From a virus (Duplodnaviria; Heunggongvirae; Uroviricota; Caudoviricetes): a stretch of DNA of 24,768 bases. A model generated the notes under the pieces. That model saw only the letters and a list, made by a program, of their open reading frames with translations. It was not told the DNA's origin and did no database searches. The stretch lies in IMG/VR virus record IMGVR_UViG_2778261381_000006, positions 1 to 24,768 of that record; one strand, given 5' to 3'. This document shows, one piece after another, positions 21,604 through 23,498 of the stretch (position 1 is the first letter of the stretch; every line of letters starts with the position of its first letter). The position numbers and the translations under genes were made by a program.

Positions 21604-22017
21604 TTAATGAGCTACAGCCTCACTGTTGCACATCTTTCTGTAGACCTGCTTATAACGCTGTAAATCATGAGGATCATTAGGTGCCAACGACTTCGATAGG
21701 ATTTTGTATACCACCCCTTTTGAAAACATGCCCTTTGGCTTCATTTCGAGTTCAACAACATATGAGTGATAGCCCACGTATGCACCAAAGCCATTTTTGG
21801 CGTTTAATTCACCACACACAAAGCCTGTCACACTCCCATCATCATGATCAGTCCTGACAAACTTATCTTTCCTAAACATCACCGACGTGGGATCTTTCAT
21901 ATCATCCGCAATTGCCTGTTGGCCCAGAGTAATAGCCTTCTCGTCTGTAGGCTTACACCCAACTAATGCAAACAACGACAATAAAGCACCTGTTAAAATC
22001 AACTTCTTTTTGCGCAT
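21604..22017 (-). CDS. Lipoprotein of unknown function (137 aa)
   Basis: Signal peptide with lipobox (MRKKKLILTGALLSLFALVGC). Confidence 0.65.
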   Translation of the reverse strand: MRKKKLILTGALLSLFALVGCKPTDEKAITLGQQAIADDMKDPTSVMFRKDKFVRTDHDDGSVTGFVCGELNAKNGFGAYVGYHSYVVELEMKPKGMFSKGVVYKILSKSLAPNDPHDLQRYKQVYRKMCNSEAVAH

Positions 22018-22244
22018 TTTGACTTCCCTTTATTTATATTTATCGTAGGTATTAGTTAACCAAAACACGAGCCGTGTCACAATAATTCCATAGCTCATTA
22101 TTTCCATCAGTGATTAATATCACATCAACTTTACAGTTCATAAATTATCAAAGCTGACAGATTAACTAAATTTAAGTACCCTTTTCGCACACTTGACGCT
22201 TGCCGCGTCTAAACTGTTCATCCTATATCAACAGAACATAAAAT

Positions 22245-23498
22245 ATGAAACTCATAAAACCTTCATCGTTGCTGGCATTAGCTTTGCTTTTCGGCCCTGG
22301 ATACGTTAACGCAGATAATAAACAAACGCTGATCGACGCCGCCACCGCAGGAGATACCACAGCACAAAGTGCGTTAGGGACAAATTATTTGGATGGGGCT
22401 AATGGCTTTGATGAGGATTTAGTAGAGGCCAAGAAGTGGATCGATCTCGCCGCAGAAAAGGGAGATAAAGTAGCATATTATGCGCTTGGGGTTATGTACA
22501 CAATTGGGAAGGGAGTAGATAAAGATCTAAATAAGGCCGTTGAGTACTACAAACTAGCAGGAAATGCTCGCAACGGCAGTGCTTACCATAATCTTGCCGT
22601 TATATACGAACGAGGTTGGACTGGAAAGGAGGACCCAGAAGCTGCTTTAAAATATCACAAACTAGCAGTAGAAGCTGGTGATATACCTTCGCTTGCCTAT
22701 ATGGGATATTTATATCAATACGGTAAGGGAGTTCCGAAAGATTACAAGAAAGCATTTAAATCTTATAAAAAGGCTGCGGATAGTGGAAATGCCGCAGGAA
22801 TGTATGGGCTAGGCTCTATGTACGACGATGGTGTTGCTGTTAAGCGCAACAATAAAGAGGCAATTAAGTGGTACTTGAAAGCAGCTGAATTAGGAAATAA
22901 TAACGCCATGAGCGCGCTTGGATACAAGTTGATGCATGGAGAAGGTATAAAAAAAGACTATTCGAAGGCCAGAAGTCTTTTAGAACAAGCAATCAGCTTA
23001 GGAAATGATTATGCCATGAACCACCTTGGTTACATGTATCTTAAGGGATTGGGCGTCAAACAGGATTATCGGAAAGCATCAGAGCTTTACCAAGCTGCTT
23101 GCGATAAAGATGACGAAACGGGCTGCGAAAACGTTGCTGCAATGAAAGCAAAAGGTACGTTCCGTTCGCCTTCAAAACAGCAAAATGCCAAATCTGACAC
23201 TCAGCGACTTATTGCTAAATCCATTGATAAAGGCGTTAACGCAACATTTACCTGGCAGGGTGATGATGCCGTCTTCACCGCTAATGATGGCAAAGTTGAC
23301 TGCACCTTCTTGAAGGATTTTTCAGAGAAAGGAGGCAATCTGGCTACCTCGTTTGTTTGCACCGATAACGTTCAAATCATCCTGAAGCAATTCAGAGATA
23401 CCAAGAATGCCTACCTCGCGGTAATGACTGACAACTTCAACACAGAAGTTAAATCATTTTCGGTCAATGTTTACGTGACTAATACTGGTTCAAACTAA
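22245..23498 (+). CDS. Secreted Sel1-like repeat (SLR/TPR-like) protein with unknown C-terminal domain
   Basis: N-terminal signal peptide MKLIKPSSLLALALLFGPGYVNA. About 8 tandem ~36-aa repeats of the form A...LG.MY..G.GV.KD..KA..WY.KAA..G. C-terminal ~110 aa unassigned. Confidence 0.8.
   Translation: MKLIKPSSLLALALLFGPGYVNADNKQTLIDAATAGDTTAQSALGTNYLDGANGFDEDLVEAKKWIDLAAEKGDKVAYYALGVMYTIGKGVDKDLNKAVEYYKLAGNARNGSAYHNLAVIYERGWTGKEDPEAALKYHKLAVEAGDIPSLAYMGYLYQYGKGVPKDYKKAFKSYKKAADSGNAAGMYGLGSMYDDGVAVKRNNKEAIKWYLKAAELGNNNAMSALGYKLMHGEGIKKDYSKARSLLEQAISLGNDYAMNHLGYMYLKGLGVKQDYRKASELYQAACDKDDETGCENVAAMKAKGTFRSPSKQQNAKSDTQRLIAKSIDKGVNATFTWQGDDAVFTANDGKVDCTFLKDFSEKGGNLATSFVCTDNVQIILKQFRDTKNAYLAVMTDNFNTEVKSFSVNVYVTNTGSN

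What the first reader, a model, noticed from the sequence alone, without database searches (positions are those of the whole stretch)
21604..23498. Secreted Sel1-repeat protein and a second lipoprotein
A 417-aa protein with a cleavable signal peptide, about eight Sel1-like repeats and an unassigned ~110-aa C-terminal domain is encoded next to a second small lipoprotein. Both are envelope-targeted and not obviously part of replication. Sel1-repeat proteins mediate protein-protein interactions, so candidate roles are in host envelope remodelling or exclusion.
Basis: partly seen in the sequence, partly recalled or inferred. Interest (0 to 1): 0.4.

Follow-up and report, generated by a model that had tools for sequence, protein, structure and literature searches.

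The report
Phage-plasmid accessory cassette: two envelope proteins
A 2-kb optional gene cassette in an E. coli phage-plasmid encodes a periplasmic Sel1-repeat protein with an uncharacterised beta-barrel tail and a small outer-membrane lipoprotein; both are real and dispensable for the phage, but their function is untested.

Summary
Window 22245-23498 (+) encodes a 417-aa protein: a Sec-type signal peptide, 7 Sel1 repeats with two capping half-repeats, a short linker and a 100-aa C-terminal domain. Window 21604-22017 (-) encodes a 137-aa lipoprotein (lipobox LVGC).

The window is the replication module of an SSU5-like phage-plasmid of Escherichia. The two genes form a discrete 1,975-bp cassette (21540-23514). 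It lies between the primase gene and a conserved 260-aa gene, at a site that is empty or holds unrelated genes in close relatives. About a third of Escherichia SSU5-like plasmids carry it.

The C-terminal domain is an orphan: 9 hits among 1.84 billion representatives, and every full-length credible hit has it C-terminal to Sel1 repeats. It is predicted to be an 8-stranded beta-barrel with an invariant cysteine pair. It is the best conserved part of the protein. The central repeats are swapped between old allelic lineages.

Homologues sit at accessory positions in lambdoid and P2-like prophages, in a CDI island and on plasmids. Each gene also occurs without the other.

Function is inferred only. 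My best guess is a periplasmic binder that protects the lysogen. Ordinary-to-moderate interest.

The parts
21540..23514 (.). Accessory two-gene cassette (1,975 bp) in a hot spot between the primase gene and the conserved 260-aa gene of an SSU5-like phage-plasmid
   Evidence: BLASTN against phage Cyrano: homology stops at window 21539 and resumes at 23515, with only about 40 bp between these points in Cyrano. PhiR41_1 gives the same picture. SSU5 and Klebsiella pJN2-26 hold unrelated genes at this site. The cassette is in 61 plasmid records, against 177 that carry the flanking gene. GC is 41.6%, against 44-48% in the flanking genes.
21604..22017 (-). Gene for a 137-aa lipoprotein of the uncharacterised phage family phrog_2320. 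Residues 1-21 are a lipoprotein signal peptide with lipobox LVGC and Lys at +2. The mature domain has the invariant motif DP...VCGxxNAKNxxGAYxG and a Cys68/Cys130 pair.
   Evidence: phrog_2320, E 1.8e-39; alignment with invariant columns; lipobox. Homologues lie in P2-like SEN4/SEN5 between ogr and int, and in lambda-like LMessi and AUS531phi between tail genes K and I.
22018..22244 (.). AT-rich (33% GC) divergent intergenic region, presumed to hold the promoters of both genes
   Evidence: GC. One search finds one sigma-70-like match on the + strand at 22019-22046, which is no more than chance would give. No Rfam family matches. Promoter function is inferred.
22245..22313 (+). Signal peptide of the Sel1-barrel protein (residues 1-23, predicted cleavage VNA|DN)
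   Evidence: heuristics. Conserved in homologues.
22314..23159 (+). Sel1-repeat alpha-solenoid (residues 24-305): 7 repeats plus two capping half-repeats, with a Cys286/Cys294 pair in the C-terminal cap. Residues 109-317 form the allelic, recombining segment.
   Evidence: Pfam Sel1, 7 stretches; 16 helices, pLDDT >90; best solved relative by sequence is E. coli c5321/EsiB, 4bwr, E 1.2e-55; mosaic divergence.
23160..23195 (+). Low-confidence, poorly conserved linker (residues 306-317)
   Evidence: pLDDT <50 at residues 311-318; the cap-plus-linker segment 291-317 is 30-33% identical between alleles, and the linker 306-317 is 8-50% identical across homologues.
23196..23498 (+). Orphan C-terminal domain (residues 318-417, plus the stop codon): a predicted 8-stranded up-and-down beta-barrel with invariant Cys353/Cys372. 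It is the most conserved part of the protein.
23490..24605 (-). Backbone DNA primase gene (context). Its stop overlaps the stop of the Sel1 gene by 9 bp, and about its last 8 codons lie inside the cassette boundary.
20696..21478 (-). Backbone 260-aa gene of unknown function (phrog_4248), the left flank of the hot spot (context)

Best explanation
What it is (shown, confidence about 0.9). The feature is an optional 'moron' cassette in an accessory-gene hot spot of the replication module of an SSU5-like phage-plasmid. It carries two independently mobile genes for envelope proteins.

(1) The first product is exported by Sec to the periplasm. It has a 7-repeat Sel1 alpha-solenoid, a flexible linker, and a small 8-stranded beta-barrel stabilised by a conserved cysteine pair.

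(2) The second is a small lipoprotein. With Lys at +2 it is predicted to be sorted to the outer membrane, and it has a conserved disulfide-containing periplasmic domain.

How it most likely works (inferred, confidence about 0.35). The Sel1-barrel protein is a periplasmic binder or neutraliser that protects the lysogen. The conserved barrel supplies a constant function, such as docking to a conserved envelope component or blocking an enzyme active site. The Sel1 solenoid supplies a binding surface whose specificity is changed by swapping its central repeats between allelic lineages. Candidate targets are proteins that enter the periplasm from outside: muralytic or ejection proteins of superinfecting phages, or interbacterial toxins delivered by T6SS or CDI.

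The lipoprotein is a separate accessory gene. It probably acts at the outer membrane, possibly masking a receptor or binding peptidoglycan. It is not an obligate partner of the Sel1 protein.
For: Accessory status:
- The cassette is cleanly absent from phages Cyrano and PhiR41_1, whose primase protein is 97% identical.
- Unrelated genes occupy the same site in SSU5 and pJN2-26.
- pLR-62-2_1 has a deletion scar, and two plasmids have IS1 disruptions.
- It is in 61 of about 177 Escherichia/Shigella SSU5-like plasmids. It is in 62 of 5,426 complete E. coli genomes, always on plasmids.

Export:
- Signal peptide and lipobox features are present and conserved.
- Cysteines occur in invariant pairs in both mature proteins. 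This fits an oxidising compartment.

The genes are functional:
- dN/dS is below 1 in every region where it could be computed.
- An intact copy is retained on the E. whittamii chromosome next to a truncated primase fragment and IS3 pieces.

Recurrent accessory gene of temperate phages:
- The same architecture lies after gpJ and the tail-fibre genes at the end of lambdoid prophages.
- It lies between tail tube FII and chaperone E in a P2-like myovirus.
- It occupies the SSU5 hot spot with or without the lipoprotein.

Constant-plus-variable design:
- The barrel is 96-98% identical between alleles whose central repeats are 58% identical.
- Synonymous sites are saturated in the centre (pS 0.83) but dS is 0.08-0.36 in the flanks.
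- The barrel is more conserved than the solenoid in every homologue.
- Repeat number varies among homologues, which range from 335-346 aa through 381 aa to 417-422 aa.

Precedents for periplasmic neutralisers:
- Sel1-repeat T6SS immunity proteins: Sel1E (PMC7108748) and PA5087/5jkp, which is also a weak sequence hit.
- T4 Spackle, a periplasmic inhibitor of the incoming tail lysozyme (PMC7677548).
- A phage 'putative lysozyme inhibitor' is among the top BFVD hits.
- One homologue lies in an orphan CdiA-CT/CdiI island.
Against: - No result here touches function directly.
- PADLOC finds no defence family beyond one sub-threshold match.
- The MliC/PliC Pfam models do not match.
- The closest solved Sel1 relative by sequence is EsiB, a host-interaction factor, and not an immunity protein.
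- No toxin or effector gene adjoins the cassette.
- The central-repeat divergence is explained by recombination between old alleles under purifying selection. There is no demonstrated positive selection.
- Promoter evidence is at chance level, so expression in the lysogen is assumed.
Confidence: 0.4

Rival explanations
1. Lysogenic-conversion factor aimed at the animal host. The Sel1-barrel protein is released (through T2SS, vesicles or lysis) or exposed, and it binds a host molecule. This would modulate colonisation or immunity, as reported for E. coli EsiB/c5321, Legionella LpnE/EnhC and Helicobacter Hcp proteins.
For: - The best solved sequence relative is E. coli CFT073 c5321/EsiB (4bwr, E 1.2e-55).
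- The position after the tail-fibre genes in lambdoid prophages is where virulence accessory genes such as lom and bor lie (own knowledge).
- Carriers are gut and clinical Escherichia from many animals.
- Allelic diversity of an exposed surface would fit antigenic variation.
Against: - Similarity between Sel1 proteins is dominated by the repeat consensus and says little about ligand.
- Nothing beyond a Sec signal predicts release from the periplasm.
- Homologues also occur in plant- and environment-associated Pantoea and in Leclercia.
- dN/dS is well below 1.
Confidence: 0.2
2. Envelope scaffold or regulator serving the element itself. The Sel1 protein binds a resident periplasmic host protein, as ExoR binds the sensor ExoS, MotX binds the stator, or EnhC binds the transglycosylase Slt. 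This would retune envelope physiology, for example peptidoglycan turnover, stress signalling or receptor display, for plasmid maintenance or for lysis.
For: - NCBIfam gives sub-threshold similarity to MotX, ExoR, AlgK and MerG, all periplasmic Sel1 proteins that bind resident partners.
- PDB hits include MotX and AlgK.
- One lipoprotein homologue carries a SPOR peptidoglycan-binding domain.
- The highly conserved barrel would fit a conserved host partner.
Against: - All these matches lie far below the family cut-offs.
- A conserved resident target does not explain why the central repeats are exchanged between deeply diverged alleles.
- The cassette is dispensable in two thirds of related elements.
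Confidence: 0.2
3. The two genes form an obligate two-component unit. The conserved barrel docks on the lipoprotein, which tethers the Sel1 solenoid under the outer membrane.
For: - The genes share one divergent promoter region, and both are present in most Escherichia carriers.
- Both the barrel and the lipoprotein are highly conserved (93-100%) while the solenoid varies.
Against: - The Sel1-barrel gene occupies the same hot spot without the lipoprotein in L030-L032 and L046-L047.
- It has no lipoprotein homologue nearby in the lambdoid, P2-like, CDI-island, Pantoea or E. whittamii loci.
- The lipoprotein family occurs alone in SEN4/5, LMessi and AUS531phi.
- Alleles of the two genes reassort: L018 has the window-type lipoprotein with the 381-aa Sel1 allele.
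Confidence: 0.1
4. A conserved replication, structural or assembly protein of the phage-plasmid.
For: The cassette lies inside the replication module, and its stop overlaps the primase stop.
Against: - It is absent from functional phages Cyrano, PhiR41_1 and SSU5.
- It is exported.
- It is interrupted or deleted in some plasmids.
Confidence: 0.02

Closest known systems
Periplasmic Sel1-repeat (SLR) proteins: E. coli EsiB/c5321 (4bwr), Helicobacter HcpB/HcpC (1klx, 1ouv), Legionella LpnE/EnhC
   Same: Sec signal peptide and tandem 36-residue Sel1 repeats forming an alpha-solenoid. There is a Cys pair in the terminal cap, as in Hcp repeats.
   Different: This protein has an additional orphan beta-barrel domain at the C-terminus that none of these have. 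It has only one Cys pair in the solenoid, not one per repeat. It is encoded on temperate phages. Its ligand is unknown.
Sel1-repeat T6SS immunity proteins (P. aeruginosa PA5087/Tli5-type, 5jkp; K. pneumoniae Sel1E, PMC7108748)
   Same: Sel1-repeat proteins that neutralise an incoming toxin by binding it. There is weak sequence similarity (5jkp, E 1.1e-6). Like this protein, Sel1E has an unassigned C-terminal extension (PMC7108748).
   Different: No effector gene is adjacent. Similarity is much weaker than to generic SLR proteins. Carriage is on phages. The function is untested.
Small periplasmic beta-barrel inhibitors: PliC/MliC/PhiA/ACP lysozyme inhibitors and the BtaiB immunity protein
Phage superinfection-exclusion envelope proteins: Cor (N15, phi80), Llp (T5; PMC9586334), Spackle (T4; PMC7677548)
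   Same: Small exported or lipidated proteins encoded by phages at accessory positions, often next to tail genes. Homologues of the lipoprotein lie between tail genes K and I, and Sel1-barrel homologues lie after tail-fibre genes.
   Different: The lipoprotein shows no homology to N15 Cor beyond the lipoprotein signal peptide. Llp and Spackle were not compared. No exclusion phenotype is known.
Accessory-gene hot spots of temperate phages (morons; the P2/P4 cargo loci)
   Same: A fixed site between conserved backbone genes that holds different unrelated cargo in related elements, can be empty, and has lower GC than its flanks.
   Different: The hot spot sits in the replication module of an SSU5-like phage-plasmid. 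None of the papers returned by my literature searches describes it.

Membership tests
Sel1 repeat family (Pfam PF08238) | Tandem 36-44-residue repeats that match the Sel1 profile above the gathering score | tested here: met
   185.5 bits against a cut-off of 30.7, with 7 stretches.
Sel1 repeat family (Pfam PF08238) | Paired antiparallel helices stacked into an alpha-solenoid | tested here: met
   The AlphaFold2 model has 16 helices over residues 23-302, mostly with pLDDT >90.
Sec/SPase I secreted proteins | N-terminal n-, h- and c-regions with small residues at -3 and -1 | tested here: met
   MKLIK / SLLALALLFG / VNA|DN. Conserved in all homologues. This is a heuristic check only, because SignalP is unavailable.
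Sec/SPase I secreted proteins | Actual cleavage and periplasmic location | not testable with these tools
   This needs PhoA fusions, fractionation or N-terminal sequencing.
Helicobacter cysteine-rich proteins (Hcp) | A disulfide-forming Cys pair in every repeat | tested here: not met
   There is only one pair in the solenoid, Cys286/Cys294 in the C-terminal cap.
Bacterial lipoproteins (SPase II substrates) | Lipobox [LVI][ASTVI][GAS]C after a basic n-region and a hydrophobic h-region | tested here: met
   LVGC at residues 18-21 and 4 basic residues in the first 6. The lipobox is conserved in phage homologues, and distant relatives use a TM anchor instead.
Bacterial lipoproteins (SPase II substrates) | Outer-membrane sorting (no Asp at +2) | tested here: met
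   Position +2 is Lys. The sorting rule is from established knowledge of the Lol pathway, and the location itself is untested.
Cor superinfection-exclusion lipoproteins | Sequence homology to Cor of N15/phi80 | tested here: not met
   BLASTP finds no alignment. hhalign aligns only the 19-residue signal peptide.
T5 Llp-type exclusion lipoproteins | Homology to Llp and a gene adjacent to the receptor-binding protein | not tested
   The Llp sequence was not retrieved. In this window the gene is next to replication genes, not next to a receptor-binding protein.
MliC/PliC lysozyme inhibitors | Match to the family profile and its conserved loop motifs | tested here: not met
T6SS Sel1-type immunity proteins (Tli5 / Sel1E) | Gene adjacent to a cognate effector gene | tested here: not met
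   The neighbours are the primase gene and a 260-aa backbone gene, with no effector gene adjacent to the cassette.
T6SS Sel1-type immunity proteins (Tli5 / Sel1E) | Protection against a cognate toxin | not testable with these tools
   This needs competition assays.
Known anti-phage defence systems (PADLOC-DB) | Match to a defence-protein model | tested here: not met
   The only match is a spurious sub-threshold PtuA hit (E 1.5e-4, no qualifying stretch). Nothing matches the lipoprotein.
Phage moron / accessory cassette | Present or absent between conserved backbone genes in close relatives | tested here: met
Phage moron / accessory cassette | Its own promoter and terminator, with expression from the prophage | tested here: inconclusive
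   The upstream region is AT-rich. However, consensus promoter matches are no more frequent than chance, and no terminator flanks the genes.

The most novel reading that the evidence does not exclude
The Sel1-barrel proteins would be a previously unrecognised class of phage-spread periplasmic immunity factors with a modular design. A constant beta-barrel module would be joined to a Sel1 solenoid whose specificity is re-programmed by recombinational exchange of its central repeats. The protein would protect lysogens against incoming periplasm-acting proteins, either tail lysins or ejection proteins of superinfecting phages or T6SS/CDI toxins. The hot spot between the primase and the 260-aa gene of SSU5-like phage-plasmids would then be a defence or competition island.
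Probability: 0.2. Interest if true: 0.6.

Novelty: new variant of a known kind. Interest (0 to 1): 0.3.

Why it matters
SSU5-like phage-plasmids are common in clinical and animal Escherichia, and their accessory genes are poorly described. This cassette is carried by roughly a third of them and by about 1% of complete E. coli genomes.

If the Sel1-barrel protein neutralises incoming phage or bacterial envelope-attacking proteins, it would add an envelope-level immunity mechanism carried by phages. It would also supply a natural example of swappable repeat-encoded specificity.

If it is instead a host-interaction factor, it would be a lysogenic-conversion gene of surveillance interest.

Either way, the orphan barrel domain is a defined and tractable target for structural and binding studies. 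As it stands, this is an uncharacterised accessory gene pair, not a surprise.

Tried and rejected
1. Near-identity DNA search of phage records found nothing. tblastn in phages found only generic Sel1 hits below 60% identity, so deposited SSU5-like phages lack the gene.

2. The word-indexed protein search with the C-terminal domain returned only 4 proteins. This was superseded by the exhaustive search.

3. NCBIfam gave only far-sub-threshold hits (MerG, AlgK, MotX, ExoR), which I rejected as memberships. PADLOC gave nothing usable.

4. PDB sequence searches with the barrel and with the lipoprotein, alone and as a profile, gave only chance-level hits.

5. Pfam scans at lax thresholds on the lipoprotein and barrel alignments were uninformative.

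6. The afdb50 fold library was unavailable. Foldseek against the PDB gave no significant hit.

7. Rfam, promoter/terminator and inverted-repeat scans of the cassette found nothing above chance.

8. Five literature searches for Sel1 or TPR genes in SSU5-like phage-plasmids or prophage exclusion found no paper on this gene. A search for EnhC found nothing in the held library, so the statement that EnhC binds Slt rests on my own knowledge.

9. Positive selection on the central repeats is rejected. dN/dS is below 1 wherever it could be computed, and synonymous sites are saturated, so the divergence reflects recombination with old alleles.

10. An obligate lipoprotein/Sel1 pairing is rejected on co-occurrence.

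11. In one search my query for the lipoprotein was shifted by one codon: it lost the start Met and included the stop. The hits are still valid.

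Full report
**1. The observation**

They are transcribed divergently from a 227-bp spacer with 33% GC.

The larger protein matches the Pfam Sel1 repeat at E = 5.4e-56 with seven matched stretches. An AlphaFold2 model built on 11 homologues has mean pLDDT 83. It shows 16 helices between residues 23 and 302: seven full repeats plus an N-terminal and a C-terminal capping half-repeat. A disordered linker and an all-beta C-terminal domain follow.

The N-terminus has the anatomy of a Sec signal peptide. There are two lysines, the hydrophobic core SLLALALLFG, and VNA|DN obeying the -3/-1 rule. The mature protein has no further hydrophobic segment. Every homologue I looked at keeps such a peptide.

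The small protein has four basic residues, a hydrophobic stretch and the lipobox LVGC, with Lys at +2. SignalP and LipoP were not available, so cleavage and lipidation are predictions.

**2. Where the window comes from**

The region is 99.9-100% identical to non-mobilizable plasmids of about 110 kb from Escherichia. Their gene content identifies SSU5/pHCM2-like phage-plasmids:
- a gp32-like SSB, Pol III alpha and CobS/CobT-like proteins
- an integrase and a tRNA cluster
- a ligase, a primase and a DnaB-like helicase
- farther on, a tail fibre

The primase protein is 97% identical to that of Escherichia phages Cyrano, CMS-2020a and PhiR41_1, and 85% identical to that of Salmonella phage SSU5.

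**3. The two genes are a discrete optional cassette in a hot spot**

BLASTN against Cyrano and PhiR41_1 shows homology up to window 21539 and again from 23515 (23545 in PhiR41_1). Only about 40-70 bp lie between these points in those phages. There the primase gene is followed directly by the homologue of the 260-aa gene at window 20696..21478. The 1,975 bp at 21540-23514 hold the two genes, their shared intergenic spacer and short flanks (64 bp and 16 bp).

The same site holds other content in relatives:
- SSU5 has an unrelated 321-aa protein without export signals (phrog_22938).
- Klebsiella pJN2-26 has an unrelated 388-aa protein (phrog_9373) with hydrophobic segments that suggest a membrane protein.
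- Plasmid pLR-62-2_1 has a deletion scar. The last 27 codons of the lipoprotein gene are joined to the last 46 codons of the Sel1 gene.
- Two E. fergusonii plasmids have IS1 in the Sel1 gene.

In PLSDB, 61 records carry the cassette. All are Escherichia apart from one record labelled 'uncultured bacterium'. By comparison, 177 records carry the flanking 260-aa gene. In complete E. coli genomes it is in 62 of 5,426, always on plasmids. The cassette has lower GC (41.6%) than the flanking genes (44-48%).

This refutes a replication, structural or assembly role. It meets the main criterion of a phage 'moron'. Evidence for its own promoter is only an AT-rich spacer, because consensus matches are at chance level.

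**4. The C-terminal domain**

Residues 318-417 match nothing in Pfam, NCBIfam or PDB sequences. An exhaustive phmmer search of 1.84 billion cluster representatives returned nine proteins at E <= 1e-3. Seven of these are credible. Every full-length one has the domain at the C-terminus of a signal-peptide-bearing Sel1 protein, including a distant 430-aa relative.

Pattern-based scans found the domain in only five of the 185,579 species genomes. All five are Enterobacterales: Escherichia whittamii, Pantoea, two Leclercia and Pseudenterobacter. The scans also found it in 23 viral contigs.

Predicted alone, the domain folds with pLDDT 88 into eight antiparallel strands.

Fold searches gave these results:
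- Foldseek finds nothing significant in the PDB.
- In BFVD the best matches are small phage proteins: Escherichia phage Mt1B1_P17 (TM 0.76, E 2e-5) and a 'putative lysozyme inhibitor' of Serratia phage Moabite.

The fold assignment is therefore sound. A functional assignment from the fold is not.

Two cysteines (353 and 372), on neighbouring strands, are invariant. The solenoid cap has a second pair (286 and 294). The lipoprotein has an invariant pair as well (68 and 130). This fits oxidising, periplasmic proteins.

**5. Evolutionary pattern**

Within otherwise near-identical phage-plasmids the Sel1 gene is a mosaic. I compared the window allele with the common 381-aa allele, which has exactly one repeat fewer.

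| Region (window residues) | Amino-acid identity |
|---|---|
| 1-108 | 84-96% |
| Central repeats, 109-290 | 58-62% |
| Cap and linker, 291-317 | 30-33% |
| Barrel, 318-417 | 96-98% |

Synonymous sites are saturated in the centre (pS 0.83), while dS is 0.08-0.36 in the flanks. dN/dS is below 1 wherever it can be computed. The centre has therefore been replaced by recombination with a deeply diverged allele, and the gene is under purifying selection. I do not claim positive selection.

Further alleles exist. A 346-aa form was called as 335 aa in the database. Forms of 413-422 aa also occur. Across all homologues the barrel is more conserved than the solenoid, at 64-98% against 43-71%.

**6. Contexts elsewhere**

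The same architecture occurs in these places:
- at the SSU5 hot spot without the lipoprotein, both in Escherichia elements (L030-L032) and in more distant SSU5-like elements with 89% primase identity (L046, L047)
- directly after gpJ, the tail-fibre and Peptidase_S74 genes at the end of lambdoid prophages of Leclercia-like hosts. There it sits next to a second Sel1 protein that lacks a signal peptide and has a C-terminal Cys-rich (zinc-ribbon-like) motif and hydrophobic segments, as read from its sequence.
- between tail tube FII and chaperone E of a P2-like myovirus
- within an orphan CdiA-CT/CdiI island of Pseudenterobacter timonensis
- on Pantoea replicons
- as an intact gene beside a primase fragment and IS3 pieces on a large E. 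whittamii contig that I take to be chromosomal. I assigned its neighbours (tonB region) by reading the translations, not with a tool.
- as a pseudogene in Leclercia adecarboxylata NCTC13032

No lipoprotein homologue accompanies any copy found outside the SSU5 hot spot.

**7. The lipoprotein**

It belongs to phrog_2320, of unknown function. Its family has the invariant motif DP...VCGxxNAKNxxGAYxG and either a lipobox or a TM anchor.

Homologues lie at accessory positions. In P2-like SEN4/SEN5 the gene is between ogr and int. In lambda-like LMessi and Pseudomonas phage AUS531phi it is between tail genes K and I. The AUS531phi protein carries an extra C-terminal SPOR peptidoglycan-binding domain.

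It is not related to the Cor exclusion lipoprotein of N15 beyond the signal peptide. It has no Pfam, NCBIfam, PADLOC or PDB match.

**8. Interpretation**

Shown: this is an optional cassette in a hot spot, made of two independently mobile genes. Both products carry conserved export signals and paired cysteines.

Inferred: the Sel1-barrel protein acts in the periplasm as a binder. It has a constant module (the barrel) and an exchangeable specificity module (the central Sel1 repeats).

I consider protection of the lysogen against proteins entering the periplasm the most likely use, at about 0.35. Three points support this:
- carriage by three unrelated temperate phage types, plus retention in non-phage contexts
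- precedents of Sel1-repeat T6SS immunity proteins (Sel1E, PMC7108748; PA5087, 5jkp) and of the periplasmic T4 Spackle inhibitor of incoming tail lysozyme (PMC7677548)
- the inhibitor and immunity proteins among the barrel's fold neighbours

Rivals are a host-directed lysogenic-conversion factor (the closest solved relative by sequence is EsiB) and a scaffold or regulator of a resident envelope protein (like ExoR, MotX or EnhC). EnhC binding to Slt is from my own knowledge. None of these can be separated without experiments.

**9. Novelty and score**

The gene is already annotated ('tetratricopeptide repeat protein', WP_016607336.1) and sits in PHROG 8741 as 'unknown function'. I found no paper on it.

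What is new here is descriptive:
- the hot spot
- the orphan barrel domain and its restricted distribution on mobile elements
- the constant-barrel, swappable-solenoid mosaic
- the independence of the two genes

It is a new variant of a known kind, a periplasmic Sel1 protein carried as a phage accessory gene, with modest interest (0.3). The interest would rise to about 0.6 if a protective, specificity-swappable mechanism were shown.

Noticed in passing
window 24714-24768: The last 55 bases do not belong to the phage-plasmid backbone, because related plasmids stop matching at 24713. They are the end of a repeated element found in 2,403 plasmid records of many genera. The sequence begins TGAAGTGG, which looks like an IS3-family inverted repeat (my reading). 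It is inserted about 108 bp upstream of the annotated primase start, between the primase and helicase genes.
   Followed up: partly
window 14000-16320: A low-GC island (31-36% against a window mean of 44%). It holds two ORFs of unknown function: 14182..15510 + (442 aa, phrog_18168) and 15762..16316 - (184 aa, phrog_15156), neither with a Pfam match. The E. fergusonii relative has a different 398-aa gene at the corresponding place. This is probably a second accessory hot spot, next to the integrase and the tRNA cluster.
   Followed up: partly
window 16610-17237: A cluster of four tRNA genes on the - strand: Ser-tga, Thr-tgt, Tyr-gta and Asn-gtt. Cyrano has Asn, Thr and Ser, and SSU5 has Asn, in the regions I viewed.
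   Followed up: no
window 23490-23514 and 24605-24713: The stop codons of the Sel1 gene and the convergent primase gene overlap by 9 bp. About the last 8 primase codons lie inside the cassette boundary and differ from Cyrano. The mechanical ORF starts at GTG 24713 (407 aa), but RefSeq annotates ATG 24605 (371 aa).
   Followed up: partly
L021 (NZ_AP027577.1, pLR-62-2_1) 1305-1800: A deletion scar of the cassette. The lipoprotein 3' end (window 21604-21685) is fused to the Sel1 3' end (window 23360-23498), so both 5' halves and the promoter region are lost. The host is a 214-kb IncFIB/IncHI1B plasmid, which suggests an SSU5-like segment embedded in a larger cointegrate.
   Followed up: partly
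L010 12047-12982 (JGI metagenome Ga0120990_100061): In the lambdoid prophage, a second Sel1-repeat protein lies just downstream of the Sel1-barrel gene. It has 311 aa, no signal peptide, a C-terminal CxxC...CxxC motif and hydrophobic segments that suggest TM helices (my reading of the sequence).
   Followed up: no
L023 (Escherichia whittamii NZ_JACSQI010000004.1) 5554-8942: An intact Sel1-barrel gene, 60% identical to the window's, lies beside a primase fragment (72 aa aligned at 87.5% identity) and IS3-family transposase pieces. The neighbours look like the chromosomal tonB/yciA region, as read from the translations. This looks like IS-mediated capture of the accessory gene from an SSU5-like element.
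   Followed up: partly
L004 (Pseudomonas phage AUS531phi) 2980-3633: A homologue of the lipoprotein's N-terminal domain is fused to a C-terminal SPOR peptidoglycan-binding domain (Pfam E 7e-16). It lies between tail genes K and I. This hints that the family works at the peptidoglycan layer.
   Followed up: no
L007 (Pseudenterobacter timonensis) 7768-15894: The Sel1-barrel homologue (420 aa) sits among CdiA fragments (Fil_haemagg_2, PT-VENN) with a 127-aa gene directly downstream of the CdiA-CT that may encode its immunity protein, a NERD-domain gene and IS3 remnants. This is an orphan toxin/immunity island.
   Followed up: partly
L025 (Leclercia adecarboxylata NCTC13032) 7000-8291: The Sel1-barrel gene is broken into three ORFs, so it is a pseudogene. 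It lies within what looks like a decaying lambdoid prophage.
   Followed up: no
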